Origin: Candidatus Falkowbacteria bacterium RIFOXYC2_FULL_36_12
Lineage (GTDB): Bacteria > Patescibacteriota > Patescibacteriia > UBA11705
Length of the DNA stretch: 64,000 nt
Direction: 5' to 3'
Assembly: GCA_001778235.1 (NCBI GenBank)
Contig: MFGJ01000006.1
Location: forward strand, 98,092-162,091
The notes under the pieces were generated by a model. The model saw only the letters and a program-made list of their open reading frames with translations, was not told the DNA's origin and did no database searches. The position numbers were made by a program, and so were the translations under genes. Below are positions 2,945 to 56,136 of this stretch, in pieces (position 1 is the first letter of the stretch; every line of letters starts with the position of its first letter).

Positions 2945-2981
2945 CCCTGCCTACCTATATGCAGGCAAGCCCCGAGGTTGG
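2945..2981. repeat. variant copy of dispersed repeat family A (CCTGCC...GCAGGCAAGCCCCGAGG)
   Basis: shares GCAGGCAAGCCCCGAGGYTGG with copies at 10.56, 34.09, 37.25, 42.14, 52.59 kb. Confidence 0.5.
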
Positions 2982-6385: not shown

Positions 6386-6507
6386 GAGATATATACATCA
6401 TTTTTATCAAAACAGTATGGAATGTTGCATATATCAATAAACTTTAATTGCTTCAAAACAAAATTTGTTAAAATGAGTACCCCGTAAGGGATTTGAACTA
6501 AAATAAT

Positions 6508-10376: not shown

Positions 10377-10600
10377 TTGAATGCTTCGCAGAGTCCCCCC
10401 TGATCAAGTCCGGGGCATGCTTTTTGGCAGTCTGCCTGTTGCCTGCCTGCCGCCTGCCTGCCTGTAGGCAGGGTAGGCAGGCAAAAAGAATGTGGAGATT
10501 CAATGCGAATTGCTTGTTCATACTTAGTGCATTGATTACACGCAGAATCCTCCCAGACCTGCCTTCATCAAGATTACGGCAGGCAAGCCCCGATGTTGGT
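10377..10600. repeat. composite intergenic repeat: family C (GCTTCGCAGAGTCCCCCC..GATCAAGTCCGG) + CCTGCCTG tandem hairpin + family A hairpin
   Basis: 10377-10426 matches 41925-41975; 10436-10492 is (CCTGCCTG)n inverted repeat; 10552-10600 is family A copy. Confidence 0.6.
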
Positions 10601-15779: not shown

Positions 15780-16157
15780 ATGGAAAAAATAAAGCAACAA
15801 TTAATAAAATCTGGATATAAATTAACCAAAGCGCGATTAGTTGTTTTGGAGTATTTATATTTGAATCACCTGACAGTTTCAGCCAGAAAATTGCACCAGG
15901 AAGTCAAAGTATGTGATCAGGCTTCGGTTTATAGAACTCTAAATCTATTTGAAAAATTAAATCTGGTTAATGTTGAAATAGTTAATAAAGAAAAAATTTA
16001 TTGTTTATCTGAAAAACCGCATCATCATATTATTTGCAAGAAATGTGGTTATAGTGAACTTGTGGTGTGTAATCATGACTTTACTAGATTTAAAAAATTT
16101 GAAAATGTTTCCCATCAATTAACCTTGATAGGAGTATGTAAAAAATGTAATAAATAA
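15780..16157 (+). CDS. zur: Fur-family transcriptional regulator (probable Zur)
   Basis: HHHIICKKCG and C-terminal CKKC metal-site motifs; directly upstream of znuABC. Confidence 0.75.
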   Translation: MEKIKQQLIKSGYKLTKARLVVLEYLYLNHLTVSARKLHQEVKVCDQASVYRTLNLFEKLNLVNVEIVNKEKIYCLSEKPHHHIICKKCGYSELVVCNHDFTRFKKFENVSHQLTLIGVCKKCNK

Positions 16158-16178
16158 AATAATATTCAATTTCAAAAT

Positions 16179-18683: not shown

Positions 18684-19049
18684 ATTATCAAAGTAAAAAT
18701 AGAGGTGTACTTTGTTTTTATCAGAAATTGGTAGAATCCGGACTAATTCTGAACTAAATTCAGGATAGGCTCCGAAGTGACAAGTTAGAAGGCGGGGTTT
18801 TTGTATGACTTGGTAAAACCACCAGTGTAAGCTGGTGGAGTTTCATTTAAATGGACGATATTAGTAGTATTCTGATTTAGAATTATGATTGATTGACAAA
18901 TATTAAAAAATATGTAATTATATTGGTTAGGAATTAAATAAATTAACGATATTACGATTTGTACTCTTAGACAGCTATTATTATCATAAAAATTGATCAA
19001 ATAGCTCTAAAATATAACAGTTTTAGGACTAGGGCAAATAAAACAATTT

Positions 19050-20542: not shown

Positions 20543-20805
20543 TTTAATTATTTACAAGGTTTTATATTTATTTTCTAGTTCTTCAACCAAATGTCTTAAA
20601 TCCGTTATGGTGTAATTGAGCCAACCATCATTTTTGAAGTCTTTAGATGTTAGTGTTATGGACCTACCGGTAAGATCGTGAAATTTACTATTTTCTAACA
20701 AGTGGTCTTTCTGCGCGCTTCGCAGTAGAAATTATGCTTGGTTTTGAAGTTGTAAAATCCTACCAATATGGTAGGATATAGAGGTGAAATTAAATTCAAA
20801 TTATT

Positions 20806-27393: not shown

Positions 27394-27770
27394 TTATACC
27401 CTGAAATCCATCTTCGTTAAAACTTCGATGGACAAGCAAATTCAGAGCCTGCCCTGAATTTAGTTCAGGGGTGACAAGTGAGATGTGGTGACAAATTGGG
27501 AGATGCTGAAAACAGTACCCGGAGATCCTGAAACAAGTTCAGGATGACGAGTGTAGGGTTCAGGGTGACGAGTGTAGGGTTCAGGATGATGAGTGGTGTG
27601 TGGTCCCGTCACTCTGAACTTGTTTCAGAGTCTCCTGAATTGACATTAAAGTAAGGAATGAAAAATTGATTTGATTACAGAATTTAATTTGAATTTTGAA
27701 GAATTATACCCTGAAACCATGCACTATAAACAAGTTTAAGTGCGTGGCAAGCAAACTCACCGCAGGCAAA
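27394..27770. repeat. intergenic cluster of family B repeats (TATACCCTGAAA...TTCAGGGGTGACAAGTGAG; CCTGAA-N5-TTCAGG hairpins; 22-bp tandem GTTCAGGGTGACGAGTGTAGG x ~2.5)
   Basis: 27595-27720 ~85-90% identical to 52392-52510; 27702-27750 is reverse complement of 37352-37380. Confidence 0.6.
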
Positions 27771-28134: not shown

Positions 28135-28383
28135 ATAGATCAGCCAAATCGCTGATTTTTTTAATTCTGTTTTTGTCTTGCATCGGTTTTTGGGGTCAGA
28201 ATCCAAACTGTAGAAAATAAAGTTGGAAAAATGTTGAAATATTGTGATATTGTAATATTGAAATAGTGAAATATTGAAATAATGGTAAGCCAGACATGTT
28301 TACCTTTGTAATATTAATTGTATAGATAAAATGAAAAGTTGGCAAAATCATGTTATAATTATATTATAAAATTAAGAAAATAT

Positions 28384-28851
28384 ATGATGTGGAAAAAATT
28401 TATCATTTCAATTTCAGTTCCTCTGCTGGCTGGTTTTATAGGGTCATTTTTTACTTTTGGCTCGATTGACTCATGGTATTCTGGCTTGAACAAACCGGTT
28501 TTTTCTCCTCCGAATTGGTTGTTCGGACCGGTATGGACAATACTGTATGTTCTTATGGGTATAAGTGTTTATTTAATTTGGAGAAAATTGGAAAAAAATG
28601 AAAAAGTTAGATCAGCATTTATATTCTTTTGGGTGCATTTGTTTTTCAATGCTATTTGGTCAATTATATTCTTTGGTTTACAAAGTCCAGTTTTGGCTTT
28701 GGTAGATATTGTGATTATTTGGCTGATGATTTTGATGATGATTATTTGGTATTGGAAAATTGAAAAGTGGTCAAGTATATTGCTCTGGCCGTATATTATC
28801 TGGGTGAGTTTTGCTAGTGTGTTGAATTTGAGTATTGTAATGTTGAATTAA
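28384..28851 (+). CDS. tspO: TspO/MBR family tryptophan-rich sensory protein
   Basis: WYSGLNKPVFSPPNWLFGPVWTILYVLMGISVYLIW signature; ORF-track start 28339, likely start MMWKKF at 28384. Confidence 0.75.
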   Translation: MMWKKFIISISVPLLAGFIGSFFTFGSIDSWYSGLNKPVFSPPNWLFGPVWTILYVLMGISVYLIWRKLEKNEKVRSAFIFFWVHLFFNAIWSIIFFGLQSPVLALVDIVIIWLMILMMIIWYWKIEKWSSILLWPYIIWVSFASVLNLSIVMLN

Positions 28852-28958
28852 TGAAATAGTGAAATAGTGGAAATAAAGTTGGATATAGATTGAAAAAATT
28901 TATTGTAAATAAAAAAAGTCCTTCGTTGAAGGTCTTTTGTTTTATCAATATTTAAGGA

Positions 28959-29477: not shown

Positions 29478-30006
29478 CTACCAGTGAAATAACAAAGTAT
29501 GGTGTAGTTTCATTGGGATAGAATTGATGATGAATGTCAATACCCCAATCAAGGAATTCTGCCAAAAATTCATTAGTCAGCCATGAATTTATAAAGGCAT
29601 GGCATTCAGCTTTTTGTTTATCTGCATTACGGGTGACAATTTTTTGCAAAGCATGAGATTCGAGGAGGTCCATTGCCTCAAGTGCATCTGAAATATCATT
29701 TACAAAAAAATGAATATATTCTGTGTTAGTAATTCTGACTCTGATTGTTCGGTTGCAATCTTTTTCCCAATTATTAGTTTCTTTTACTGCATAACAGGCG
29801 ATAAGATCAGCGCTGTGGATTTCAATATAGCCAATGAGTTCAAGGTTTAGAAGTTTTTGCACTGAAGCAATGGCAGAATCACGAAATCTTAGTTTTAGCC
29901 AAGTGTTAATCGTGATTGATGCAAGTCGGTGTTCTATTGTGTTTTTGTTCATTTTTTGTCCTGTTTTTTGTTGTGAAGGTGCGTTTTTGATTTTAAATAT
30001 TATCAT
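29323..30006 (-). CDS. hypothetical protein
   Basis: ORF only; probable start MNKNTIEHRL near 29950. Confidence 0.3.
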   Translation of the reverse strand: MIIFKIKNAPSQQKTGQKMNKNTIEHRLASITINTWLKLRFRDSAIASVQKLLNLELIGYIEIHSADLIACYAVKETNNWEKDCNRTIRVRITNTEYIHFFVNDISDALEAMDLLESHALQKIVTRNADKQKAECHAFINSWLTNEFLAEFLDWGIDIHHQFYPNETTPYFVISLVDAQNIFFTLEISCWSGVLSFTNGTQIRRRFKDPTQIQQILRDQLTKYIEHL

Positions 30007-30162
30007 TATGTATAAAATTTGTCAAGTTTATGGAAAATTTAGATTGTTGTTATAATTTTTTTCTCTTTTTATATGGAGAAAACTTTGAGATACAATTCGG
30101 GAAAATGATAGTAATAATAACTATTTTTTATTCCTAGAATTACATTAAAATACCTCAATTCA

Positions 30163-30191
30163 TTGACATTTTGTGTAAAATATGATATAAT
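30163..30191 (+). promoter_or_regulatory. sigma70 consensus promoter TTGACA-17-TATAAT upstream of high-GC gene
   Basis: TTGACA 30163-30168, 17-bp spacer, TATAAT 30186-30191; followed by GGAGGG SD at 30241-30247. Confidence 0.55.
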
Positions 30192-30250
30192 TAATATTGT
30201 AACTGTTCTTTAACTTGGCGCGTTTCGCGCCATTGCCCAGGAGGGAAATC

Positions 30251-30829
30251 GTGAAGAGCTTCCGAATGGTGTCGCTGATCGTGTTGGTTCTGGTCGTGAC
30301 CGCGGGTGGGGGGCAGAAATGCTCCCCGCCGGTGCCGATGGAGGATACCTGCAACGAGATCGCGTCCGAGTGCAACTCGGACGACGACTGCTGTTCCGGC
30401 TTCTGCTGGACCAGCAGTGAGTTCTTCGGCTCGCAGAAGTCCTGCCAGCCGAACGACAATCTCCACTGCAGTCAGGACACTGACTGCAGGATTGGAGACT
30501 TCTGCGCCGAAGACGGCTTCTGCGTCCAGAACGCAGGACCGTGCGTTAGCGAATGGACGCAGTCGTGCAACATCGGCGGACCCGTCGATTTCACCGAGTG
30601 CGTTCGCGCTCGGAGCGGAGAACTTCACCAGCGGGTCTTCACCTGCAACAGTGGGTTGACCTGCGTGTTCATCTCGCAGGAGCAGGTACAGTGCCAGCCA
30701 GTCGTAGATCACGAGTACACGCAGTGTAGCGATGGCGCTGACTGCGCGGACGGTTCGTTCTTGTGCGAAAATGGTCGGTGCGAACTGGAATGTCGGGACG
30801 ACAGTGACTGTCGGACCGAGGAAGGCTAG
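30251..30829 (+). CDS. secreted Cys-rich repeat protein, N-terminal part up to in-frame TAG (high-GC island)
   Basis: GTG 30251 / ATG 30266 after SD; signal-peptide-like MVSLIVLVLVVTAGG; C-x4-C-x2-G-x-C-x2-G-x-C repeats; ~65% GC. Confidence 0.5.
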   Translation: MKSFRMVSLIVLVLVVTAGGGQKCSPPVPMEDTCNEIASECNSDDDCCSGFCWTSSEFFGSQKSCQPNDNLHCSQDTDCRIGDFCAEDGFCVQNAGPCVSEWTQSCNIGGPVDFTECVRARSGELHQRVFTCNSGLTCVFISQEQVQCQPVVDHEYTQCSDGADCADGSFLCENGRCELECRDDSDCRTEEG

Positions 30830-30952
30830 TTCTGCTACCGCTTCAGCGGGACCTGTCGGTACTCGGAGAACGGCCACTACTGCAACAGCTCGGACCAGTG
30901 TCCGGGCTACATCACCGAGGCCAACCAGTTCCCGATCAACAACCAGCTCTGT

Positions 30953-31675
30953 GTGCAGGGGGACTGTAGCACGAGCTACGGTCCCTGCGGTAACTCCAGC
31001 TACCAGATGTGCGATGACGAGAATAATGTCAACATCTGGAGCTGCGTCCAGACCAGCGAAGACGACTGGGTCTGGACGCATAGCATGTGTCCGGATGACA
31101 TGCGCTGTGTGGAATACGCACTCGGTCTTGGCATCTGTCAGTTCCAGGCCCTGCCGGAAAGCAAGATCATGGTTCAGCGCTTGAGTAGCAGTACGATGTT
31201 GATCTACGGCGCGGAGAACACCATGATCAGCTTCAACCTGATCAACTACCCGGTGGACCAGGAGAACAACGGCGAGACCGCTCTCGTGACATCGGTCACT
31301 ATTTCGGTGCTGATGTCGAGCGAAGAGTACAATCGCCTGTTGAATTGCAGCTTGAGGTCCTTGTCGTCGTGGCAGATGCTCGACTTCACGGATATCATCG
31401 AGTTGCGGAACAGAGATGACGGAAGTTCGTTCGCCGTCATCAACTTCTCGCTGACCAACGGCTACATGGTCCCGGCTGGAGTGAGTTCTCCTTTGACTGT
31501 TCAGTGCTTCATCGCGCCGAGCAGCCAGATCTACGAGCCCGAGGCAGTGCAATCCGGGTTCATTCCCAGCCTGGGGACCAGTCCTGGGACCGCGATCGTG
31601 GTCTACGGACGAGAGAGTGGTGAGCGCCTCCTGGTCGAGCCTGACCAGGATGTGTTCAACACCCTGACCAACTGA
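30953..31675 (+). CDS. C-terminal continuation of the same high-GC gene (same frame as 30251..30829; Cys repeats then ~200 aa Cys-poor domain)
   Basis: same reading frame as upstream ORF, only one TAG (30827-30829) between them; repeat register continues across the TAG. Confidence 0.5.
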   Translation: MQGDCSTSYGPCGNSSYQMCDDENNVNIWSCVQTSEDDWVWTHSMCPDDMRCVEYALGLGICQFQALPESKIMVQRLSSSTMLIYGAENTMISFNLINYPVDQENNGETALVTSVTISVLMSSEEYNRLLNCSLRSLSSWQMLDFTDIIELRNRDDGSSFAVINFSLTNGYMVPAGVSSPLTVQCFIAPSSQIYEPEAVQSGFIPSLGTSPGTAIVVYGRESGERLLVEPDQDVFNTLTN

Positions 31676-31870
31676 TCCTTCCTAAGAAGTTCTTTCATCC
31701 CAATTCAGGGACAACAAACCTTAAAACAGGAAAGCTTCCACTCAATGAGTCGGGAGTTTTTCTTTTTGAAATAGTAATATTGAAATATTGTGATAATGAA
31801 ATATTGGGTGATTGTATTGGAATGTTGACAAAACATCTGAACACGACAATAATATAATGAAAGAAAATAT

Positions 31871-32479
31871 TTGGAATTGCGTAATATATTTATAACTATG
31901 TCTACTAAAATAGTAGAAAAAACTGATGCTGAATTAGTTGAGTTAGCGCTTGAAAACCAAGCGTATTTTTCGGATATTGTTTATAGGTATCAAACAAAAC
32001 TGACTTATTATATCAGGCGATTATCAAATTTTCCTGATGAAGAAATAGAGGATATTTTACAGGATGTTTTTATCAAAGTTTATAAAAATCTGAACGATTT
32101 TGATCAAAGTTTAAAATTTTCTTCATGGATTTATCGTATTACCCATAATGAGGTTATCAGCAAATATAGAAAAATAAAACAACAAAATATTATTTCGATT
32201 GAAATTCTTACTGATGATATTTTGAATAAATTGGAACATGAAGTAAGTATTGTAGAAACATTAGAAAATAATGAAAAAAAGGAAATTATAAAGCAGGTTT
32301 TAGCTCTGATGGATTTAAAATATCGCGAAGTTTTGGTACTAAAATATTTTGAAGAATTGGACTATAAAGAAATTTCCGATGTTTTGAAGAAACCAACTGG
32401 TACGATTGCCACTTTACTTAACAGAGCTAAGAAACAATTTAATAAAACATGCATTGATCTAAACCTAAAATATGAATGA
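31871..32479 (+). CDS. ECF-type RNA polymerase sigma-70 family sigma factor
   Basis: region 2 (DVFIKVYKNLNDFD...FSSWIYRITHNEVI) and region 4 HTH (YKEISDVLKKPTGTIATLLNRAKKQF); probable start MSTKIV at 31898. Confidence 0.75.
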   Translation: MELRNIFITMSTKIVEKTDAELVELALENQAYFSDIVYRYQTKLTYYIRRLSNFPDEEIEDILQDVFIKVYKNLNDFDQSLKFSSWIYRITHNEVISKYRKIKQQNIISIEILTDDILNKLEHEVSIVETLENNEKKEIIKQVLALMDLKYREVLVLKYFEELDYKEISDVLKKPTGTIATLLNRAKKQFNKTCIDLNLKYE

Positions 32480-34064: not shown

Positions 34065-34115
34065 CCCCAGACCTGCCTTCATCAAGATTACGGCAGGCAA
34101 GCCCCGAGGCTTGGC
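34065..34115. repeat. family A dispersed hairpin repeat copy
   Basis: CCCCAGACCTGCCTTCATCAAGATTACGGCAGGCAAGCCCCGAGGCTTGGC. Confidence 0.6.
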
Positions 34116-37223: not shown

Positions 37224-37400
37224 CCCCAAACCTGCCTTCATCAAGATTACGGCAGGCAAGCCCGAGGCTAAACATGTTAGGGGGGGGAATGTATGCGTTA
37301 GATGTTATTGTTGTTTATATGTTTAAATTTGTCACTCTGAACTTGCTCGTCATGCACTTAAACTTGTTTATAGTGCATGGTTTCAGAGTATAAAGGGATA
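37224..37400. repeat. intergenic composite repeat: family A hairpin + family B element in reverse orientation
   Basis: 37224-37280 family A; 37327-37395 shares termini AAATTTGTCACTCTGAACTTGCT...TTTCAGAGTATAAAGGGAT with 52272-52345. Confidence 0.6.
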
Positions 37401-40880: not shown

Positions 40881-41843
40881 ATGTCTGAAAAAATTATCTA
40901 TTTAATCGGTGGGATTATTATCGGATTGATTTTGATTGTCGGTGCATTCTTTCTATTCACCAATCAAGATTTTTTTACAGCTGATAATGACCAACAGATT
41001 GAAGATGAGCAAGATTCAACACAAGATTCAACATCGGATCAAGATGTTGAGACAACTGATCAACCAAGTGATGTTGATACAGATACACCTGTAAACAGCG
41101 ATCAACCAAACAATACCAATGATCAAATTGTTGTATTGACTCCGATTGTAGGCGCTACTGTAAGCAACCCAATAAATTTTTCCGGAAGAGCTAGAGGAAC
41201 ATTTTTCTTTGAAGGTAGTTTTCCTGTTAGTTTAAGAAAACCAAATGGAGAAGTTGTGGCATCAAGTTTTGCAACTGCGCAGGGCGAATGGATGACAACC
41301 GAGTTTGTAAATTTTACTGGTCAGCTTGAATTTAATTATGCTGACATTGATGATGGTAGAATGAATTTAGTTTTTACCAAGGATGATCCATCAGGCAGAG
41401 CATTAACCAGTGAAGATAGTAAAGCTGTTGGAATCTATATTCAAGATGCACCTGATACTTCAAAATTTAGTATTTATTTCCAAAATGATAGTATTGATGA
41501 AGCTTTAAATTCATGTATTGATGTTTATCCAGTTGTTCGAACTCGGCCATTTACCCAAGCGATTGCCAAATTAGCGATTGAGACTCTTTTGGAAGGTCCT
41601 GATGGTTTGGAATCTGAATCAGGTTATACCTCTCTACTTCCAACTGCAACACTGAATACTATAACTTTAACCAATGGCACACTTTATATTGATTTAAGGG
41701 GAAATATTAATGATTTTAATGGCGGAAGTTGCCGAACACAAGCAATGAAATCGCAAATTATTAATACTGCTAAGCAATTCCCATCTGTTAATACTGTTAT
41801 TATTTCTGTAAATGGAGATACTGAAAATATTTTTCAACCATAA
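40881..41843 (+). CDS. secreted/membrane-anchored protein with acidic linker and C-terminal GerMN/Gmad2-like region (weak)
   Basis: TM helix, Asp/Gln-rich low-complexity linker, C-terminal pattern resembling spore-germination-type domains. Confidence 0.3.
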   Translation: MSEKIIYLIGGIIIGLILIVGAFFLFTNQDFFTADNDQQIEDEQDSTQDSTSDQDVETTDQPSDVDTDTPVNSDQPNNTNDQIVVLTPIVGATVSNPINFSGRARGTFFFEGSFPVSLRKPNGEVVASSFATAQGEWMTTEFVNFTGQLEFNYADIDDGRMNLVFTKDDPSGRALTSEDSKAVGIYIQDAPDTSKFSIYFQNDSIDEALNSCIDVYPVVRTRPFTQAIAKLAIETLLEGPDGLESESGYTSLLPTATLNTITLTNGTLYIDLRGNINDFNGGSCRTQAMKSQIINTAKQFPSVNTVIISVNGDTENIFQP

Positions 41844-41924
41844 GAAAATTATAGGATTAGATAAAAAGCAGCTTTTTTGAAGCTGTTTTTTTGTTTTTTT
41901 CAATATATTGTTGAGTGTTTGAAT

Positions 41925-42520
41925 TTGCTTCGCAGAGTACCCCCAGATCAAATCCGGTGCATACTTTTTGATGCCCGCCTACGGCTCGACTGAGCTCGCC
42001 GAATGTCCGGCAGGCAGGCAAAGAAGAATTATACCCTGAAATCCATCTTCGTTAAAACTTCGATGGACAAGTAAGTTCAGGGTGACAAGTGAGTATGTTG
42101 GTGGCGCGCATTACCGCCCCAGACCTGCCTTCATCAAGATTACGGCAGGCAAGCCCCCGTGATGTTCATAGTCGATGCTCTAAATATGCATGGCGAGTAA
42201 GCTCACTGCAGGCGAAGTTCAGAGTGCTGGAAGCACACACCACTCGTCATGCTGAACTTGTTTCAGCATCTCTGGGAACTATTTCAGCATCTCTGGGTAC
42301 TATTTTATAGGACTCAATCAACTTCAGAGTGAAATGAATTGTTCGTGTTTCGGAGACCCTGAAATCCATCTTCGTTAAAACTTCGATGGACAAGCAAGTT
42401 CAGGGTGACGGTTTGGTTGGCATTATTTCAGCATTTCTGGGAACTACTCCAGTATTTCTGGGTTTAATTTCAGTATCTTTCTCCTTATAGCCGACCCGCT
42501 GCCTGGCAGTGGGTCGGCTA
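41925..42520. repeat. large intergenic repeat cluster (families C, A, B; 19-bp tandem TCTCTGGGAACTATTTCAGCA-like units)
   Basis: 41925-41975 matches 10377-10426; 42031-42175 ~95% identical to 52489-52625; 42355-42415 second family B copy; tandem units at 42270-42310 and 42416-42480. Confidence 0.65.
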
Positions 42521-42619
42521 TTCTGCCAAGGCCAAACCATTAACAACCTCCTAGTCTTTCAGTACTTATTTTTAGTTGACAAATTTTAATATATGTGATA
42601 ATCTTAGCTATTGTGAACC

Positions 42620-43780
42620 TTGACAAAAAGGCAGGCAACCCACATGGAGGGCGCAAAAATGAATGCAAAGAAAAGATTCAAATCATATTATCTTCCCAGA
42701 ATTTTTTTGATTTTGCTTGCTGTAATCGTTGCGGGTGGCTTTTGGCTGGCAGCTAATACATCAGCAAATGATGCTTATGAAAAATGTGTAGAAGAATGGG
42801 AAAATGCTTTGTTTCTTGATAAATATTCATGTCTGGATAGAAATGAATATCCATGTCTCAATGATTGTGAAACCTATAATAATAGACTGAAGTATGAAGC
42901 TCCGGTTTTGATTGCCCGAGGTCAAAATATGGTTGACTATAGTTATATGGTTCACTATAGTTGCGTGGCAGTTCTTGATTTCAGTCAGTTTTATGGTTCT
43001 GCTGCCCTGTTAGCAATTGACAATAGATATTTTAATGATGAATTTATTTCACTATTGATGAGTAAAGATCAAAAAGAATTGGCAGAAACTCTGCTTCAAC
43101 ATAAATTTAAGCAATTGATAGAGAATGAAAATTGGATTCCTGCTTGGCAAATGTTGGAGCAAGCTCCGTGGTTGAAGTCTGTGCTAACAATGACTACCAA
43201 TGATTTGTTTAGTGGATTGCTGTCAATGAATTTTGGTCATAGTTGGGGATTTAACTGGACCTGCACTGAAGCGATTAATCTGGTTGAGAAATATGACTTG
43301 CAGAGTCATCCTGCTTTCATCCAAAGTACTTTGCCGAGATGTTTTGACTCCCAGAAAGGAAGAAATTTACCTTGCATGGTTCTGGATTTGCAATTCCGAT
43401 ATCATTTTCATGGGATCACTCTGGTTAATGAATTTAGTCAGTGTTTTACTCAAATGTTTGAAGATAACATTGTTACGGTAGATGAAGCGCGAATTTATTA
43501 TGAAAATGCACAGAGATTTGATTTTCAACCTGAACAAAAAAAATATTTTGCTTGGGTTTATCTTCTCTCCCTGATGAAATCCGCTAGTTCTGAAACTGAA
43601 ATGATGACTGCCATTAATTTAATGGATGATTACGGAATTAGTCAACAAGAATTAAAGGATATGTTGGAAATCCCTGAAAGAATGAATTTGTTGCGTTTGC
43701 AATATCGTATGTCAATATTGCCAAGAAATGTAGTGGAAGATTGTTTGCCTGAAAAGGTAGAGGAGTATGGAAATGAATAA
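42620..43780 (+). CDS. hypothetical protein with N-terminal TM helix
   Basis: ORF only. Confidence 0.35.
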   Translation: MTKRQATHMEGAKMNAKKRFKSYYLPRIFLILLAVIVAGGFWLAANTSANDAYEKCVEEWENALFLDKYSCLDRNEYPCLNDCETYNNRLKYEAPVLIARGQNMVDYSYMVHYSCVAVLDFSQFYGSAALLAIDNRYFNDEFISLLMSKDQKELAETLLQHKFKQLIENENWIPAWQMLEQAPWLKSVLTMTTNDLFSGLLSMNFGHSWGFNWTCTEAINLVEKYDLQSHPAFIQSTLPRCFDSQKGRNLPCMVLDLQFRYHFHGITLVNEFSQCFTQMFEDNIVTVDEARIYYENAQRFDFQPEQKKYFAWVYLLSLMKSASSETEMMTAINLMDDYGISQQELKDMLEIPERMNLLRLQYRMSILPRNVVEDCLPEKVEEYGNE

Positions 43781-48703: not shown

Positions 48704-49105
48704 ATGAACAATGAACCAACAACAAAAGATATTTTAGAGGCAATAAACACTTTCTCAACTCATGTTGATAAACGATTTGATGGTGTGGATGAACGGCTTG
48801 ATAAGGTAGAAGGCAGGCTTGATAAAGTAGAAGGCAGGCTTGATAAAGTAGACGGCAGGCTTGATAAAGTAGACGGCAGGCTTGATAAAGTAGACGGTAG
48901 ACTCGATAAAGTAGAATCAACCATGGTAACTAAAGAATACCTTGATGAAAAATTGAGCGATCTTCGTGGTGATTTGGTTGTTCTAACTAGAAAAGAAGAT
49001 AATAAATTAAAAAAATTAGTTGAAATTTTGAATGATAAAAATATTTTAACGGCTGAAGATAAGACAAAAATATTTCAGATGGAGCCGTTTGCAGAGCAAC
49101 GATAG
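48704..49105 (+). CDS. coiled-coil protein with ~7 tandem heptad repeats RLDKV[ED]G
   Basis: translation of 21-bp DNA tandem repeat. Confidence 0.5.
   Translation: MNNEPTTKDILEAINTFSTHVDKRFDGVDERLDKVEGRLDKVEGRLDKVDGRLDKVDGRLDKVDGRLDKVESTMVTKEYLDEKLSDLRGDLVVLTRKEDNKLKKLVEILNDKNILTAEDKTKIFQMEPFAEQR
48793..48920 (+). repeat. 21-bp tandem repeat GGCAGGCTTGATAAAGTAGAA x ~6 inside CDS
   Basis: directly visible; variant units use GAA/GAC at the last codon. Confidence 0.7.
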
Positions 49106-52261: not shown

Positions 52262-52640
52262 TTTCTATATGTAAATTTGTCACTCTGAACTTGCTTGTCC
52301 AGCGAAGTTTTAACGAAGATGGATTTCAGAGTATAAAGGGATGGCTTGATTATACCCTGAAATAAATTCAGGGTGACAAGTGGAGTGTGGTCCCGTCACT
52401 CTGAACTTGTTTCAGAGTCTCCTGAATTGACACTAGAGGATGGAATAGAAAATTAATTTGATTAAATAATTTAATCCGAATTTTGAAGAATTATACCCTG
52501 AAACAACCTGCCTTTCGGCAGACAGGATTCAGGGTGACAAGTGAGTATGTTGGTGGCGCGTATTACCACCCCAGAACTACCTTCATCAAGATTACGGCAG
52601 GCAAGCCCCCGTGATGTTTATGTTCGATGCTTTAAATATT
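52262..52640. repeat. large intergenic repeat cluster (family B in both orientations + family A)
   Basis: 52272-52345 reverse-orientation family B; 52358-52395 CCTGAA-N5-TTCAGG unit; 52392-52510 ~ 27595-27720; 52489-52625 ~ 42031-42175. Confidence 0.65.
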
Positions 52641-52768: not shown

Positions 52769-54208
52769 TTGCCCCTTGACAAACAAGCTGAAAGTATCAC
52801 CACCCGTCAAAGAGGAAAGGGAATGCAGATGAGTGAAAAAGTAAGTCCAATATTGGTTTCTGGTTTTAGAGATACAGATCCAGCTGACATGATTGCTAAG
52901 CAGAGACTTATTGATGAAATTATGGCTGTTTATAGATCTTTTGGTTTTGAACCCTTGGATACTGCTGTTGTTCAGTTGCAAACTGTATTATTTGAGGAGT
53001 TTGAATATACTGATATGGATTTTTTCCAAGTTGAAAATTCTAGAAAATTTTCCCATTCAGAAGCTCCACGAATGGCTCTTAGATTTGATTTGACTGTGCC
53101 TTTGGCTAGATATGTGGCAGCGAATATTGCGACCTTGCCCAGACCTTTTAAGCGAGCACAAATTGGCAAAGTTTATCGTGGAGAAAAAGCTCAAGCTGGT
53201 AGATATTGTGAGTTCTTGCAAGCTGATATTGATAGTTTGTTTACTGGTAGTGTTTATTCTGATGCTGAAATCGTGGCTGTGATGTTTACTTTGTTTAAAA
53301 AGTTGGGGATTGATAAATTCAAAATTGTTATTAATAATAGAATGATTTGCAATTTATTCCCTCAATATGCTGGATTTAACCCTGATGATTTGACTGCTGT
53401 GTTGAGAGTTCTTGACAAAATCAGAAAAGTGTCGAGAGAAGAAACAGTCAAGGGATTGTCACATAAGCAGGATGAAGAAAGTAAAAATCCAGTTAGATTT
53501 TTATCAAATAGTTCGATTAGGAAATTGATGTATTTGATTGAAAAACAAGGTAGTAATGAAGATTTGTTGATTTACCTGAAGGTAAAATATCAGCGAGCAG
53601 GTTTAGATACGACTGGAATTGTAGAGCTTGAAAAGATGTATGAATATTGCCGTATGATGGGAGTTGATGATAAAAATCTACAAGTTGATTTTGCCATGGT
53701 TCGAGGCTTGGCGTATTATACTGGGCCGATTTTCGAGACTTATCTAACGGAGTTGCCTGAATTTGGTAGTGTATTTTCAGGTGGAAGATATGATAATTTG
53801 GTTAGTAAATTTACAGAAGCTAATGTCCCAGCTACTGGAGCTTCAGTCGGAGTTGATCGTTTGTTTGAAGCTTTGAAACAATTGAGTTATCTTAAACCAT
53901 TAGGGAGCGTGGTTGATGTAATGATCATGGTTTTGGATAGATCTTACATGCCAGAATATTTGTTGATGGCTAAAGAAATAAGGGATAATGGATATAATGT
54001 AATGATTTATGATGGAGTTGATATGAGTTTTAAAACTCAACTAATGAGAGCAGTGACCAATGATATTCACTTCGTTGTAATTGTTGGTAAAGATGAAATG
54101 GATAAACAGGTAGTGACTGTGAAGGATTTGAAAACCAGAAAGCAATCAGTATTGTCTAGAAATGAATTTACTACCTACCATTTTCTCAATATAATTACTG
54201 GTACTTGA
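52769..54208 (+). CDS. histidyl-tRNA synthetase paralogue (full-length class II HisRS-like)
   Basis: motif 2 FKRAQIGKVYRGEKAQAGRYCEFLQADID, GLAYYTGPIFE, SGGRYDNLV; probable start MQMSEKV ~52823. Confidence 0.65.
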   Translation: MPLDKQAESITTRQRGKGMQMSEKVSPILVSGFRDTDPADMIAKQRLIDEIMAVYRSFGFEPLDTAVVQLQTVLFEEFEYTDMDFFQVENSRKFSHSEAPRMALRFDLTVPLARYVAANIATLPRPFKRAQIGKVYRGEKAQAGRYCEFLQADIDSLFTGSVYSDAEIVAVMFTLFKKLGIDKFKIVINNRMICNLFPQYAGFNPDDLTAVLRVLDKIRKVSREETVKGLSHKQDEESKNPVRFLSNSSIRKLMYLIEKQGSNEDLLIYLKVKYQRAGLDTTGIVELEKMYEYCRMMGVDDKNLQVDFAMVRGLAYYTGPIFETYLTELPEFGSVFSGGRYDNLVSKFTEANVPATGASVGVDRLFEALKQLSYLKPLGSVVDVMIMVLDRSYMPEYLLMAKEIRDNGYNVMIYDGVDMSFKTQLMRAVTNDIHFVVIVGKDEMDKQVVTVKDLKTRKQSVLSRNEFTTYHFLNIITGT

Positions 54209-54255
54209 CAGAATTAAAAAAGCTGTTAAGATGAATTTGCTAGGCAGTTTCTGTC

Positions 54256-54329
54256 GGGCCGTTAGCTCCAATTGGTAGAGCGGCGGATTGTGGTTCCGTT
54301 TGTTACGGGTTCGAATCCCGTACGGCCCA
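54256..54329 (+). tRNA. tRNA-His(GUG), non-canonical: no encoded G-1, A73, no encoded CCA
   Basis: acceptor GGGCCGT/ACGGCCC, anticodon stem GCGGA/TCCGT with loop TTGTGGT, T-loop TTCGAAT; nucleotide -1 is C, discriminator is A. Confidence 0.7.
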
Positions 54330-54333
54330 CTCC

Positions 54334-54368
54334 AGGCGAAATGAAAGATTTCATTTCGCCTGTTTTTT
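54334..54368 (+). terminator. rho-independent terminator after tRNA-His
   Basis: AGGCGAAATGAAA-GATTT-CATTTCGCCT followed by T7. Confidence 0.5.
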
Positions 54369-54479
54369 TACACTGAAATATGTTAATATTTTGCTATTGA
54401 CATTTTATCGAGTGTTTGATATTATAAATATGTTGAAAATATATTAAATGCAATTGAACAAGGAAGATGTCTAAAAACC

Positions 54480-54668
54480 TTCAATTTTAGCGAATCAGGG
54501 CCAGTGAAAGCCTGATATTGAATTTTTGGACTACACACCCTTGGAGCAGCTTGAGCAAAACTCAAGACGAGATTGTACTCGTAAAAATACACCCTGATGA
54601 TTGTCAGGCGCTTAATTAAAAGACTCTCTTTTCTTTAATTGCAAAACAATCAGGGAAAAGAGAGTTTT
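54480..54668 (+). ncRNA. candidate structured small RNA ending in a strong terminator
   Basis: consecutive hairpins (TCAGGGCC..GCCTGA; CTTGAG-CAAAA-CTCAAG; ACGAG-ATTGT-ACTCGT; CCTGA-TGATTG-TCAGG) then ACTCTCTTTTC...GAAAAGAGAGT + T6; no ORF. Confidence 0.25.
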
Positions 54669-54715
54669 TTGTATTAAAAAATATAAGCTTTTTAATAATA
54701 TTTATCAATAATTAT

Positions 54716-54792
54716 GGCGGCTGTAGCTCAGTTGGTAGAGCGCTGGTTTGTGGTACCAGTGGTCGCGGGTTCAAATCCCGTCGGTCGCCCCA
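54716..54792 (+). tRNA. tRNA-His(GUG), canonical bacterial type with encoded G-1, C73 and CCA
   Basis: G-1 (54716) opposite C73 (54789); acceptor GCGGCTG/CGGTCGC (two G-U), anticodon stem CTGGT/ACCAG with loop TTGTGGT, T-loop TTCAAAT. Confidence 0.8.
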
Positions 54793-54813
54793 GACTACGC
54801 ACTGTAAAGTGCT

Positions 54814-56136
54814 TTGTCTGGCAAGCCATTAAATTTTATGTCAGAATCATTATTACAACGAGCCAAGGGAGTCCGCGACTTTGGTCCTGAAGAAAAAATT
54901 GAGCGTGATCGTATTGTCGAGTCTTTGAAACAAGTATTCGAATCTTTTGGGTTTTCTCCAATTGAAACGCCGATTATTGAGCGCTATGAATTATTTGCCT
55001 CAAAGTTTGGACAAGGTGATCAATCTGACAGCATGAAAGAGAGTTTCAAATTGAAGGATCAAGGGTTGCGAGATTTAGTTTTAAGAAATGAATTCACAAT
55101 TCCATTTGCAAGGTATGTTGGAATGAATCCAAACCTTAGAATGCCTTTTAAACGATACCAAATAGGGCAGGTATTTCGAGATGGACCAATTAAACTGGGT
55201 AGATATAGAGAATTTTGGCAATGTGATGTGGATGTTGTTGGTAACCCTGATGTTTCAGCTGATACAGAAATATTGATGATTGCCCAAAAAGTTTTTGCTA
55301 AACTTGGTTTTGAGGTGGAGATTTATTTGAACAATAGAAAATTGTTGAATGCTGTACTTGATAAATATGAAATTAATAAAGAAATTGCGACTGATGTAAT
55401 TATTTCAATTGATAAACTTGATAAAATAGGTGTGGATGGGGTTGTTGAAGAGTTAAAAAATAAAAATATTGAAGAAGCAAAAGCACGAGAATTTCTACAA
55501 ATTTTGAATGTTACGGGAACAAATGAAGAAAAAATTGGAAAATTGCAGACTAGTTTGGGAAAGATTGATGCTTTACAGGAGATTGAGCAGACAATAAATC
55601 TGATGCCTAATCAAGAAAATATTGTGTTTTTACCGTCATTGGCGCGAGGTTTGGCATATTATACTGGCAATGTGTTTGAGATATTTTTAAAAGATAAAAA
55701 TGTTATGAGTTCTGCGGTTGGTGGTGGTGGTAGATATGACAAAATGATTGGTGGATTTTTGGGAAAAGATGGAGATATTCCGGCAGTTGGAATAAGTTTT
55801 GGACTTGAGACTATTTTGGATGTGATTAATAAAACAGGAATTTCTGAAATGAAAAAAACTGTAACTCAAGTTTATGTTTTGGCAATGGGGGAAGAAAATA
55901 TGAAATCAGCCATTGAGACCGCTGACCAAATTCGGAATTTAGGGATTAATGTTGATATTGATTTGCAAAACAGAAAGTTGAAGAAAAATTTGGAATATGC
56001 CAATGCTCTTGAAATCCCATATGTAGTAATAATTGGTTCAGATGAAATTGAAAAAAAGCAAATTACACTTAGAAATATGAAAGATGGGTCACAAAAATCA
56101 ATAAAACCTGAAGAAATAAAAAATTATTTAAATTAA
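54814..56136 (+). CDS. hisS: histidine--tRNA ligase
   Basis: motif 2 FKRYQIGQVFRDGPIKLGRYREFWQCDVD, GLAYYTGNVFE, GGGGRYD; anticodon-binding C-terminal domain; likely start MSESLL ~54838. Confidence 0.85.
   Translation: MSGKPLNFMSESLLQRAKGVRDFGPEEKIERDRIVESLKQVFESFGFSPIETPIIERYELFASKFGQGDQSDSMKESFKLKDQGLRDLVLRNEFTIPFARYVGMNPNLRMPFKRYQIGQVFRDGPIKLGRYREFWQCDVDVVGNPDVSADTEILMIAQKVFAKLGFEVEIYLNNRKLLNAVLDKYEINKEIATDVIISIDKLDKIGVDGVVEELKNKNIEEAKAREFLQILNVTGTNEEKIGKLQTSLGKIDALQEIEQTINLMPNQENIVFLPSLARGLAYYTGNVFEIFLKDKNVMSSAVGGGGRYDKMIGGFLGKDGDIPAVGISFGLETILDVINKTGISEMKKTVTQVYVLAMGEENMKSAIETADQIRNLGINVDIDLQNRKLKKNLEYANALEIPYVVIIGSDEIEKKQITLRNMKDGSQKSIKPEEIKNYLN

What the first reader, a model, noticed from the sequence alone, without database searches (positions are those of the whole stretch)
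42031..42175. Abundant dispersed intergenic repeat families (A: 26-nt palindromic hairpin; B: TIR-bounded MITE-like units; C: GCTTCGCAGAGT...TCCGG) including >100-bp near-identical segments
Family A:
- The core is CCTGCCTTCATCAAGATTACGGCAGG with conserved flanks CCCCAGA...CAAGCCCCG.
- Copies occur at 10552-10600, 34065-34115, 37224-37280, 42115-42170 and 52568-52620.
- A divergent copy lies at 2945-2981.
- Its translation creates the spurious ORFs reading ...PDLPSSRLRQASP.

Family B:
- Units are bounded by short inverted termini TAYACCCTGAA ... TTCAGGGTGACAAG.
- They have variable interiors and many CCTGAA-N5-TTCAGG mini-hairpins.
- Copies occur in both orientations at 18730-18800, 27394-27480, 27595-27760, 37327-37395, 42040-42090, 42355-42415, 52272-52345 and 52358-52400.

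Family C:
- GCTTCGCAGAGTNCCCCNGATCAARTCCGG occurs at 10377-10412 and 41925-41960.
- A related GCGCTTCGCAG lies at 20705-20720.

Longer segments:
- 42031-42175 matches 52489-52625 at ~95% identity.
- 27595-27720 matches 52392-52510 at ~85-90% identity.

Why it matters:
- This much repeated DNA, confined to intergenic regions, is unusual for a compact genome.
- Candidate explanations are mobile MITE-like elements, REP-like structural or regulatory hairpins, or a family of small RNAs.
- The palindromic CCTGAA-N5-TTCAGG units could also be operator sites for a dimeric regulator.
Basis: seen in the sequence. Interest (0 to 1): 0.7.

Follow-up and report, generated by a model that had tools for sequence, protein, structure and literature searches.

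The report
REP-type hairpin repeats and nuclease-gene fossils
The repeats are real: most are small tagged DNA hairpins of the known "CGTC REP" kind, mixed with decayed remnants of the small GIY-YIG (Ssn-type) nuclease gene that travels with such hairpins, here in an apparently Patescibacteria-type (small-genome) groundwater bacterium, and one further hairpin family remains unexplained.

Summary
Families A, B and C and both long segments exist at the stated places, far above chance, in at least 8 independent assemblies, and only between genes.

- **Family B.** Its "inverted termini" and the CCTGAA-N5-TTCAGG mini-hairpins are one thing: CGTC/TGTC-tagged palindromes (4-nt tag, 8-bp stem, 5-nt loop, 3-nt tail). 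They belong to the CGTC REP superfamily of Di Nocera 2013, the superfamily that includes Neisseria dRS3/NTS. Half of the copies carry 25-40-nt hairpins nested in the loop.
- **Link to a nuclease gene.** In other metagenomes the same hairpins flank small GIY-YIG genes resembling Ssn, the nuclease of Chenal 2025 that cuts such hairpins in single-stranded DNA (ssDNA).
- **The 138-nt long repeat.** It contains an 81%-identical fossil of the 3' end of such a gene between two outward-tagged hairpins. This makes it a MITE-like deletion derivative, now in at least 3 copies.
- **Family C.** It looks like a decayed hairpin of the same superfamily.
- **Family A.** This is a separate hairpin with a 40-nt invariant core. 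All copies point the same way, and it has rare relatives in other metagenome-assembled genomes (MAGs). Its partner and role are unknown.

Small-RNA and operator readings are poorly supported. Verdict: a new member of a known kind, of moderate interest.

The parts
42030..42087 (-). TGTC-tagged REP hairpin (TGTC-ACCCTGAA...TTCAGGGT-ATA) with a 35-nt hairpin nested in its loop; 'Family B' unit inside the reported interval
   Evidence: Perfect 8-bp arms and tag. ssDNA fold -10 kcal/mol, z -3.4. 96-98% identical to 27394-27445 and 42356-42409.
42117..42157 (+). Family A hairpin: CCCCAGA-CCTGCC-TTCATCAAGATTAC-GGCAGG-CAAGCCCC
   Evidence: Six-bp outer stem.
10552..10593 (+). Family A copy, about 100 nt upstream of dnaG
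34065..34107 (+). Family A copy. By eye it lies between a terminator-like hairpin and a -35/-10-like pair, neither of them scanned.
37224..37269 (+). Family A copy, between convergent genes
52569..52609 (+). Family A copy with 2 mismatches in the 5' arm (CTACC)
2945..2981 (+). Divergent Family A relative (short loop) with the conserved GCAGGCAAGCCCCGAGG 3' part, upstream of tRNA-Ser
   Evidence: (family D7).
27522..27549 (-). Canonical REP: CGTC-ATCCTGAA-CTTGT-TTCAGGAT-CTC. Left member of a head-to-head dimer.
27541..27606 (+). Tandem array of REP half-sites, TTCAGGRTGAYGAGTG(T)AGGG x3, forming the spacer of the head-to-head dimer
   Evidence: Similar arrays lie next to intact GIY-YIG genes and in 71% GC contigs.
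27607..27634 (+). Canonical REP: CGTC-ACTCTGAA-CTTGT-TTCAGAGT-CTC. Left end of the 138-nt long repeat.
   Evidence: family D6.
27652..27708 (+). Fossil of the 3' end of an Ssn-type GIY-YIG gene (KIDLITEFNLNFEELY)
   Evidence: Ungapped alignment to gene 3' ends: score 26 against shuffles 11.0 +/- 1.5, and score 24 against 11.0 +/- 1.6.
27706..27760 (-). Degenerate REP with a nested hairpin; its 3' arm is decayed. It abuts the ribosome-binding site of ORF 27781.
   Evidence: 92% identical to 37393-37343. Sequence.
27398..27480 (-). Two adjacent degenerate REPs: ACCCTGAA-35 nt-TTCAGAGC, and GCCCTGAATTTAGTTCAGGGGTGACAAG
37330..37392 (+). TGTC-tagged REP whose 40-nt loop insert is itself a CGTC-tagged palindrome (37348-37378)
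   Evidence: ssDNA fold -12.5 kcal/mol, z -5.0.
42245..42272 (+). Canonical REP: CGTC-ATGCTGAA-CTTGT-TTCAGCAT-CTC. It differs only in the last tail base from the commonest hairpin beside intact GIY-YIG genes (…CTT there).
42353..42410 (-). CGTC-tagged REP with the same 35-nt loop insert as 42030-42087
52278..52335 (+). TGTC-tagged REP with the 35-nt loop insert
52351..52378 (-). Canonical REP: TGTC-ACCCTGAA-TTTAT-TTCAGGGT-ATA. Head-to-head partner of 52394.
52394..52421 (+). Canonical REP: CGTC-ACTCTGAA-CTTGT-TTCAGAGT-CTC. Left end of the MITE-like unit.
52442..52495 (+). Fossil of the 3' end of an Ssn-type GIY-YIG gene (GWNR/KINLIK*FNPNFEELY)
   Evidence: 42/52 nt identical, ungapped, to nt 223-275 of the P0072 gene: score 33 against shuffles 10.8 +/- 1.7, 0 of 300 as high. 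41/53 nt to the P0074 gene. Peptide match to P0072.
52492..52539 (-). TGTC-tagged REP with a 25-nt CCTGCC-type hairpin in the loop. Right end of the MITE-like unit.
   Evidence: ssDNA fold -11.1 kcal/mol, z -4.6.
10382..10426 (.). Family C: GCTTCGCAGAGT plus a decayed palindrome CCCCCCTGATCAAGTCCGGGG
   Evidence: (family D15). Resembles the CGTC-1 type ACCCCGGATCAAGTCCGGGGTGAC, which I back-translated from the peptide WTPDQVRGD.
41926..41970 (.). Family C copy, more decayed
10425..10490 (.). GC-rich CCTGCC/GGCAGG palindrome block ending in GGCAGGCAAAAAG. A counterpart lies at 41975-42020.
   Evidence: 95% identical to L116 9531-9587. Similar palindromes occur in other phyla.
18746..18790 (.). 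Degenerate REP (ATTCTGAACTAAATTCAGGAT) plus a GAAGTGACAAG half-site

Best explanation
These intergenic regions are BIME/NIME-like mosaics of small tagged DNA hairpins and their decay products.

**The core unit (shown)**
- It is a CGTC- or TGTC-tagged palindrome: a 4-nt unpaired tag, an 8-bp stem A(Y)(N)CTGAA, a 5-nt loop (CTTGT or TTTAT) and a 3-nt tail.
- It is a member of the CGTC REP superfamily.
- It occurs singly, as head-to-head dimers, and with other tagged hairpins nested in its loop.

**Link to a nuclease gene (shown elsewhere, inferred here)**
- In other organisms the same hairpins bracket a 96-97-aa GIY-YIG gene with the tags facing outwards: CGTC-REP(+), gene, REP(-)-GACR.
- This is the arrangement of the Ssn nucleases, which bind such hairpins in single-stranded DNA and cut beside the tag.

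**The 138-nt long repeat (fossil and copies shown; origin by deletion and later copying inferred)**
- It is an internal-deletion derivative of that cassette. Both terminal hairpins and the last ~55 nt of the gene survive.
- It has since been copied to at least three sites, as a MITE would be.

**Inferred**
- The hairpins spread and are kept palindromic through a single-strand, hairpin-dependent process.
- An Ssn-type enzyme encoded elsewhere in the genome, or formerly encoded there, is the likely agent.
- Hairpin loops act as favoured entry points.
- The elements persist where they do least harm, mostly between a gene's end and the next gene's start signals.

**The other families**
- Family C is a decayed hairpin of the same superfamily.
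- Family A is a separate hairpin with a conserved 8-nt flank (CAAGCCCC) and strict orientation. Its partner enzyme or role is unknown.
For: **Anatomy**
- Ten perfect copies with the tag, 8-bp stem and tail.
- Two head-to-head dimers: 27522-27549/27607-27634 and 52351-52378/52394-52421.
- The layout largely matches the published CGTC definition: CGTC or TGTC tag, 8-9-bp stems, 4-5-nt loops, 3-nt tails, head-to-head dimers predominant. Exceptions are listed under evidence against.
- The paper's supplement lists the Sulfurovum CGTC-2 peptide RHSELVSGS. Its back-translation fits CGTCATTCTGAACTTGTTTCAGGATC.

**Palindromy is maintained**
- Four stem variants occur in the window, each perfectly compensated.
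- In 86 distinct 28-mers, three stem pairs switch: UA 42/CG 39; CG 44/GC 28/UA 13; UA 74/CG 9.

**Spread**
- The exact 24-mer ACCCTGAA-N5-TTCAGGGTGAC occurs in 70 IMG/VR stretches of 33-71% GC.

**Link to the nuclease**
- There are 92 tagged hairpins within 700 nt of P0001/P0072/P0074 genes (28 kb), against 6 in the other 71.5 kb.
- Copy number differs between strains.
- Catalytic residues Y8/Y19/E66 have the same spacing as SsnA Y6/Y17/E64.

**Fossil**
- 52442-52495 is 81% identical, ungapped, to a gene's 3' end, about 13 sd above shuffles.
- 27652-27708 is about 10 sd above shuffles in the same comparison, and about 8 sd against a second gene.
- A third copy lies just beyond the window.
- Fossil and flanking hairpins keep the order and orientation of intact cassettes.

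**Nesting**
- Five loop inserts were found, read by eye as tagged in the same orientation as the host hairpin.
- A further insertion lies inside one insert in L235.
- A 55-nt loop insert lies next to an intact gene in L227.

**Location**
- The repeats are only intergenic.
- The 42-kb cluster starts after a predicted terminator of the upstream gene. Terminator-like hairpins at two other clusters were seen by eye only.
Against: - No intact GIY-YIG gene was found in the 64-kb window, in the next 9.7 kb, or in about 30 kb of related loci.
- The published degenerate SRM search sequence does not match these hairpins, nor those beside the GIY-YIG gene in L205.
- The profile-HMM hit to the fossil alone is not significant (E 0.85). 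The case rests on nucleotide alignments.
- The gene-hairpin association comes from only three independent genomic contexts.
- The Ssn clade concerned has not been tested biochemically. I could not check its cd10448 membership; NCBIfam and PDB gave nothing.
- Tails are CTC or ATA rather than the published CCA. Stem position 2 is C in most copies rather than T.
- No target-site duplication was found, and no presence/absence polymorphism: all assemblies are one strain, and the nearest relative of a flanking gene is 50% identical.
- Family A is not explained by this model.
Confidence: 0.72

Rival explanations
1. The hairpins are classical REP/REPIN elements mobilised by a RAYT (an IS200/IS605-type Y1 transposase). 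The GIY-YIG link is incidental.
For: - REPs, head-to-head dimers and mosaic clusters are what RAYT systems produce.
- The strict orientation of Family A is the kind of bias expected from transposition on the lagging-strand template.
Against: - The tag is CGTC/TGTC, not GTAG.
- CGTC repeats were found not to flank tyrosine transposase genes.
- No transposase was found in the window by Pfam.
- The fossil inside the repeat unit is of a GIY-YIG gene.
Confidence: 0.08
2. The units, above all Family A, are a family of small RNAs or cis-regulatory RNA structures acting on the downstream genes.
For: - All Family A copies are co-oriented with the genes. Most lie roughly 40-160 nt before a gene start; one is about 460 nt away and one lies between convergent genes.
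- The 40-nt core is 95-100% conserved.
- Relatives in other genomes change three inner pairs on both sides.
- One Family B unit abuts a ribosome-binding site.
Against: - No Rfam family matched at the gathering threshold, nor at E<=10 in the 42-kb cluster.
- There are no compensatory changes within this genome, and two copies break the stem.
- The 14-nt 'loop' is as conserved as the stem.
- The whole 396-nt cluster folds only about 2 sd better than shuffles.
- Family B occurs equally on both strands.
- The 42-kb cluster follows a predicted terminator.
- Downstream genes are functionally unrelated: dnaG, an exonuclease, HisRS and a tRNA.
Confidence: 0.1
3. The CCTGAA-N5-TTCAGG palindromes are operators of a dimeric transcription factor.
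For: They are perfect 8-bp inverted repeats at a fixed 5-nt spacing in five copies, in promoter-bearing regions.
Against: - Stem bases 2-3 differ between copies with exact compensation, which preserves pairing rather than a binding sequence.
- In five copies the arms are 25-40 nt apart.
- There is an asymmetric tag and tail.
- The same sequence occurs in unrelated contigs of 33-71% GC, including phage head-gene regions.
Confidence: 0.03
4. The repeats are an assembly artefact, i.e. a collapsed or chimeric locus.
For: One contig ends inside the cluster (L009, at 42049) and one diverges at 41912 (L010).
Against: - Eight independent assemblies span the 42-kb cluster at 99.96-100% identity.
- Copies differ from each other by 2-20% and sit in unique flanks.
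Confidence: 0.01

Closest known systems
CGTC-tagged REPs, especially family CGTC-2 (Di Nocera, De Gregorio & Rocco 2013, BMC Genomics 14:522)
   Same: - Unpaired CGTC/TGTC tag, 8-bp stem starting with A, 5-nt loop and 3-nt tail.
- Head-to-head dimers.
- Extragenic and multi-copy.
- The same CTGAAC-TTG-TTTCAG core is implied by the Sulfurovum CGTC-2 peptide.
   Different: - The host appears to be a Patescibacteria-type (CPR-like) groundwater bacterium, not one of the five phyla listed there.
- Tails are CTC or ATA rather than CCA.
- Half of the copies carry nested hairpins in the loop.
- Copy number in the whole genome is unknown.
Neisseria dRS3/NTS repeats, NIME mosaics and the SsnA nuclease; 'Ssn-related motifs' (Chenal et al. 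2025, Nat Commun 16:2388)
   Same: - Tagged hairpins of the same superfamily (dRS3 = CGTC-1).
- Clustering in mosaic intergenic blocks.
- Hairpin-gene-hairpin layout around a ~95-aa single-domain GIY-YIG gene.
- Tolerance of loop changes fits the loop inserts seen here.
   Different: - The stem sequence is CTGAA-type, not CCCGC-type.
- The published SRM search pattern does not match.
- No intact gene was seen here, only fossils.
- A role in transformation is untested.
REPINs/BIMEs with RAYT transposases (Pseudomonas, E. coli)
   Same: - Short palindromes in inverted pairs.
- Non-autonomous copies far outnumber the gene.
- Intergenic mosaics.
   Different: - They carry a GTAG tag and depend on a Y1 (HuH) transposase.
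- Here the tag is CGTC/TGTC and the associated gene is GIY-YIG.
MITEs (internal-deletion derivatives of insertion sequences)
   Same: The 138-nt unit keeps both inverted ends and a sliver of the parent gene, and is present in several copies.
   Different: - The ends are whole hairpins rather than simple terminal inverted repeats.
- No target-site duplication was seen.
- The parent cassette has not been shown to transpose.
Rickettsia palindromic elements RPE-4/RPE-6
   Same: CGTC-tagged palindromes in a small genome. They are classed as CGTC-4 and CGTC-1 by Di Nocera 2013.
   Different: RPEs are often inserted in frame within genes. Here none lies inside a gene.

Membership tests
CGTC-tagged REP superfamily (Di Nocera 2013) | Unpaired 4-nt tag CGTC (variants TGTC, CCTC) at one end of the palindrome | tested here: met
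   All 10 perfect copies carry a tag: five CGTC and five TGTC. Definition.
CGTC-tagged REP superfamily (Di Nocera 2013) | Stem of 8-9 bp and loop of 4-5 nt | tested here: met
   The 8-bp stem is perfect in 10 of 10 copies. The loop is 5 nt in five copies. In the other five it holds a 25-40-nt nested hairpin.
CGTC-tagged REP superfamily (Di Nocera 2013) | Complementary A-T residues at stem positions 1 and 2, and a 3-nt tail near CCA | tested here: inconclusive
   Position 1 is A in all copies. Position 2 is T in 2 and C in 8. Tails are CTC or ATA here, and CCA in high-GC relatives.
CGTC-tagged REP superfamily (Di Nocera 2013) | Multi-copy, extragenic, head-to-head dimers predominant | tested here: met
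   Fourteen copies, all intergenic. Two head-to-head dimers.
Ssn-related motif (SRM/NTS) of Chenal 2025 | Matches the degenerate search sequence HGTCWYN(0-2)YYVSBRHN(0-5)WNVSBRGN(0-2)RNCYNB | tested here: not met
   No match in the window, in L116, L122 or L128, or in L205. A positive-control NTS does match.
Ssn-related motif (SRM/NTS) of Chenal 2025 | Hairpins flank a single-domain ~95-aa GIY-YIG (cd10448) gene on both sides | tested here: inconclusive
   No intact gene in the sequence available. Two fossils of the gene's 3' end lie between outward-tagged hairpins. Identical hairpins flank intact genes elsewhere at about 40-fold enrichment, in three contexts. cd10448 membership itself could not be checked.
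Ssn-related motif (SRM/NTS) of Chenal 2025 | Bound and cut as single-stranded DNA by the cognate Ssn | not testable with these tools
   Needs the purified protein and oligonucleotides.
REP/REPIN with RAYT | GTAG tag and a flanked Y1 transposase gene | tested here: not met
   The tag is CGTC/TGTC. No transposase domain in the window.
MITE | Inverted ends, derived from an autonomous element by internal deletion, several copies | tested here: met
   The layout is REP(+), 3'-end fossil, REP(-). Copies at 27607-27760, 52394-52539 and L235 ~16120-16270, plus a more decayed one in L116.
MITE | Target-site duplication | tested here: inconclusive
   No consistent duplication was seen at unit borders by inspection. 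There are no empty sites to compare with.
Any Rfam RNA family | Covariance-model match | tested here: not met
   Only five tRNAs at gathering score. Nothing credible at E<=10 in 41840-42625.

The most novel reading that the evidence does not exclude
Family A is a new kind of tagged hairpin.
- It has a conserved 8-nt flank (CAAGCCCC) and strictly one orientation on the G-rich strand, which is the strand exposed as lagging-strand template.
- It would be read in single-stranded DNA by an enzyme not yet identified.
- Together with the Ssn-type hairpins it would mark 'self' DNA in a Patescibacteria-type bacterium that I assume, from general knowledge of the group and not from this window, depends on DNA uptake.
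- The repeats would then be a working system for processing incoming or replicating single strands, not junk.
Probability: 0.12. Interest if true: 0.65.

Novelty: new member of a known kind. Interest (0 to 1): 0.42.

Why it matters
- **Annotation.** These repeats generate spurious ORFs and break assemblies in groundwater Patescibacteria-type genomes. Identifying them removes that nuisance.
- **Host range.** The CGTC-REP / Ssn-type hairpin world extends to a streamlined lineage where dispersed repeats are unexpected.
- **Mobility.** This is sequence-level support for a proposal so far only hypothesised, that hairpin-ssn-hairpin cassettes behave like insertion sequences. A gene-deleted derivative with both ends intact has multiplied within one genome, and hairpins sit nested up to three deep inside each other's loops.
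- **Search pattern.** The published SRM search pattern misses a very widespread CTGAA-type hairpin class, found in contigs of 33-71% GC, phage-like contigs included.

Tried and rejected
- **Rfam** at gathering and permissive thresholds gave only tRNAs.
- **Promoter scans** of three clusters were at background. Terminator-like sites exceeded background only in the 42-kb cluster, where the strongest marks the upstream gene's end.
- **A scan of 185,579 species genomes** for the Family A pattern returned mostly chance hits in GC-rich genomes and none of the window's own copies. The metagenome scan also missed the window's own contigs. Genome-wide copy number therefore could not be obtained.
- **A regex and a profile HMM** for the GIY-YIG gene found no intact copy. 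They scored the fossil at only E 0.85. Nucleotide alignment was needed.
- **The SRM pattern** of Chenal 2025 gave no match.
- **PDB and NCBIfam** gave nothing useful for the GIY-YIG proteins.
- **Empty-site comparison** was impossible. All contigs are one strain and the nearest homologue of a flanking gene is 50% identical.
- **A Family A link to a second GIY-YIG type** is a single case (L125) and is treated as coincidence.
- **The GCGCTTCGCAG at 20705** is an 11-mer and was dropped.
- **Literature searches** with the hairpin sequences and peptides found nothing.
Full report
**1.

A self-comparison of the window recovers every family.
- Family A has five + strand copies, 95-100% identical over about 40 nt. 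The 26-nt core matches 5 times at <=3 mismatches, and none of 100 shuffles gave any match.
- Family B units lie on both strands at 27394-27760, 37330-37393, 42029-42088, 42356-42410 and 52277-52540.
- Family C is 10382-10426 against 41926-41970, at 89% identity.
- The long segments are 42076-42187 against 52528-52639 (93%) and 27580-27717 against 52367-52504 (89%).
The interiors are unrelated.
- The 11-mer at 20705 is not a family member.
- No repeat overlaps a gene. Nine of the 17 intergenic regions of >=200 nt carry repeats.
- Eight of ten independently assembled contigs span the 42-kb cluster at 99.96-100% identity, so this is not a collapse artefact. One contig stops inside the cluster (at 42049) and one diverges just before it (at 41912), which is what repeats do to assemblers.

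**2. The organism**

- The window is the end of a 320-kb contig from Rifle groundwater. It is also present in three NCBI MAGs.
- GC is 0.29-0.39 in all but one 2-kb window, with strong positive GC skew. Nearly all genes are on the + strand.
- The best non-self homologue of its HisRS is 50% identical. Named hits are mostly Patescibacteria/CPR.
- From the accession range and the existence of a 'Falkowbacteria RIFOXY*_FULL_34_*' series, I infer a Falkowbacteria-like CPR bacterium. This was not verified.
- No transposase domain was found in the window.

**3. What Family B really is**

Written tag-first, all good copies read [C/T]GTC - A(Y)(N)CTGAA - loop - TTCAG(N)(R)T - 3-nt tail.
- There are ten perfect copies, five on each strand. 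The pattern is absent from shuffles.
- Five copies have the 5-nt loop CTTGT or TTTAT.
- The other five have 25-40 nt in the loop. That insert folds into its own hairpin and, read by eye, carries its own CGTC/TGTC-like tag in the same orientation.
TTCAGGGTGACAAG termini' are therefore the two arms, plus tail and tag, of one hairpin.
- Two pairs form head-to-head dimers. One spacer is a tandem array of half-sites.
- Stem positions 2-3 differ between copies (TC, CT, TG, CC) and are always compensated.
- Across 86 distinct 28-mers collected from all loci, three stem pairs switch between pair types: UA 42/CG 39; CG 44/GC 28/UA 13; UA 74/CG 9.
- That set was chosen with <=1 stem mismatch. The percentage paired is therefore by construction, but the variety of compensated stems is not.

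**4. Match to known families**

Di Nocera et al. 2013 define CGTC-tagged REPs as follows:
- a CGTC tag, often TGTC;
- 8-9-bp stems starting A-T;
- 4-5-nt loops and 3-nt tails;
- head-to-head dimers predominant, and no dedicated transposase.

They also equate Neisseria dRS3 with CGTC-1.

Their supplement supports two specific links. Both back-translations are my inference.
- The Sulfurovum CGTC-2 peptide RHSELVSGS back-translates to CGTCATTCTGAACTTGTTTCAGGATC.
- The CGTC-1 peptide WTPDQVRGD fits ACCCCGGATCAAGTCCGGGGTGAC, which resembles the Family C core.

Most defining features are met. The tail is CTC or ATA rather than CCA, and stem position 2 is mostly C. Tails are CCA in the high-GC relatives.

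**5. The hairpin is not private to this genome**

- A scan of IMG/VR for ACCCTGAA-N5-35-TTCAGGGTGAC gave 70 stretches. Most are the exact 24-mer, in contigs of 33-71% GC. Many sit next to phage capsid-like genes (by eye; no domain search).
- Three JGI contigs of 34% GC (L116, L122, L128) share only the repeats with the window: Families A and B, Family C-like sequence (in L122), the GC-rich CCTGCC palindrome and the 8-nt arrays. No coding sequence is shared. They are other regions of the same or a sister genome.

**6. The nuclease link**

I recalled that such hairpins accompany small GIY-YIG genes. The literature confirms it. Chenal et al. 2025 report the following:
- SsnA is a 94-aa single-domain GIY-YIG protein that binds and cuts the dRS3-containing NTS hairpin only as single-stranded DNA.
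- The nucleotides upstream of the palindrome govern cutting.
- The loop can be changed or extended.
- The NTS-ssnA-NTS gene architecture is described as identical to that of insertion sequences.

Here:
- A GIY-YIG gene in L205 is followed by an array of CGTC/TGTC hairpins, CTGAA-type included.
- Its homologues number 7117 at E<=1e-5, many on sub-kb contigs.
- Around P0001, P0074 and P0072 there are 92 tagged hairpins within 700 nt of the gene, against 6 in the remaining 71.5 kb.
- The hairpins flanking P0074 include CGTCATGCTGAACTTGTTTCAGCATCTT, which matches window 42245-42272 except for the last tail base.
- The layout beside P0074 is CGTC-REP(+), gene, REP(-)-GACR; P0072 has a REP(-) just after its stop codon.
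- Hairpin counts differ between strains in the same genomic context.
- Y8/Y19/E66 reproduce the SsnA spacing.

Caveats:
- There are only three independent contexts.
- cd10448 membership was not checked.
- The published SRM search pattern does not match these hairpins.

**7. The long repeat is a gene-deleted cassette**

- Window 52442-52495 aligns without gaps to nt 223-275 of the P0072 gene. Identity is 42/52. The score is 33 against 10.8 +/- 1.7 for shuffles, with 0 of 300 as high.
- It also aligns to the P0074 gene at 41/53.
- The translation GWNR/KINLIK*FNPNFEELY compares with P0072 ...WHRQWKINLIKEQNPNFEDLY.
- The paralogue at 27652-27708 scores about 10 sd above shuffles against the P0072 gene and about 8 sd against the P0074 gene.
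- In the 52-kb copy the fossil lies between a REP(+) and a REP(-) with tags outward, as in intact cassettes (the right-hand REP of the 27-kb copy is decayed).
- A third copy, lacking the left-hand REP, lies 6 kb beyond the window (L235 ~16120-16270). There the 35-nt loop insert has itself received a further 35-nt insertion.
- The window copies and the more decayed L116 copy share similar truncation boundaries by eye. I infer that one deletion derivative was later copied, as for a MITE.

**8. Family A**

- The unit is CCCCAGA-CCTGCC-TTCATCAAGATTAC-GGCAGG-CAAGCCCC.
- It is 95-100% identical in 11 copies (window plus L116, L122 and L128), always in the same orientation as the neighbouring genes.
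- Where a terminator-like hairpin could be seen (by eye), Family A lies after it. Most copies lie roughly 40-160 nt before a gene start; one is about 460 nt away and one lies between convergent genes.
- Within the genome nothing covaries. Two copies break the stem.
- Rare relatives, CCTGCC-TWCGCYRARGCTWC-GGCAGGCAAGCCCC, occur in two 'Myxococcales' MAGs, a Patescibacteria MAG and a few metagenome contigs.
- They change three inner pairs on both sides. The 3' half was fixed by my search pattern, and the changes may be a single event.
- No gene is consistently nearby. It is absent from the Ssn loci.
- I class it as a second, untagged-by-CGTC hairpin family of unknown partner.
- Family C and the GC-rich CCTGCC palindromes look like decayed or related small palindromes of the same mosaic.

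**9. Mechanism and confidence**

Shown:
- the anatomy;
- compensated stems;
- nesting;
- the gene fossil;
- the association with GIY-YIG genes elsewhere;
- the strictly intergenic location, and a cluster start after a predicted terminator at 41863-41891.

Inferred:
- an Ssn-type enzyme acts on these hairpins in single-stranded DNA in this organism;
- that activity, or replication-linked hairpin processes, spreads them;
- loops are entry points;
- the clusters are tolerated passengers rather than regulators.

Rivals: RAYT-driven REPs, an RNA family, operators and an assembly artefact are weighed in the structured fields.

Overall this is a new member of a known kind, with one unexplained family. 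Interest is moderate.

Noticed in passing
window 52769-56136: Two histidyl-tRNA synthetase genes, each next to a tRNA-His(GUG): HisRS 52769-54208 with tRNA 54256-54330, and tRNA 54717-54792 with HisRS 54814-56136. The first HisRS has no homologue above 50% identity outside this strain.
   Followed up: partly
window 28226-28293, 28819-28878, 31764-31815; also L116 840-908 and L128 9588-9683: Tandem arrays of an 8-nt unit (GAAATATT/GAAATAGT/GTAATATT) in intergenic regions. They are conserved between the window and the sister contigs. In L128 the array lies directly upstream of a CCTGCC palindrome and Family A. The 8-bp period is unexplained.
   Followed up: no
window 30001-32000: A GC-rich island (GC 0.50 against about 0.33) coincides with a 453-aa minus-strand ORF (30191-31552) that has no Pfam match. 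It may be foreign DNA.
   Followed up: no
window 48756-48923: Six or more tandem 21-nt (7-aa) repeats, TTGATAAAGTAGAAGGCAGGC, inside ORF 48704-49105 (DUF2730/DUF7310-like).
   Followed up: no
window 5944-5985 and 6460-6501: A 42-nt sequence (AAAATTGGCAAAATAGGTAAATCCGCAAGGGATTTGAACCAA, 71% identical) recurs immediately upstream of two consecutive genes (starts at 5990 and 6508). It may be a shared leader or promoter element.
   Followed up: no
L010 3583-4054 (window 41912): A low-coverage contig from another sample matches the window up to 41912, just after the terminator and 13 nt before Family C. It then continues into an unrelated GFO_IDH_MocA gene. This is either a rearrangement at the edge of the repeat cluster or a chimera.
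   Followed up: partly
L136-L205 (IMG/VR contigs): The exact hairpin ATGG-ACCCTGAAACAAGTTCAGGGTGAC-G recurs in 60-71% GC phage-like contigs next to phage capsid-like genes (by eye; no domain search). The same 24-mer is thus kept across a 33-71% GC range.
   Followed up: partly
L045, L051, L052, L059, L103 (Dactylosporangium genomes): A conserved element GTCGCTTCGCGC-CCTGCC-(19-20 nt)-GGCAGG-CAAGCCCC with conserved flanks occurs once in each of five Dactylosporangium genomes. It resembles Family C followed by Family A.
   Followed up: no
L125 520-960: An 89-aa GIY-YIG gene of another clade sits directly after a tRNA gene. It is followed by a 17-nt duplicate of the tRNA 3' end, which looks like an integration scar. 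A Family-A-like hairpin lies about 130 nt further on.
   Followed up: partly
L235 16200-16275 (about 6 kb beyond the window end): The 35-nt loop insert of a TGTC-REP carries a further 35-nt insertion, giving hairpins nested three deep.
   Followed up: partly
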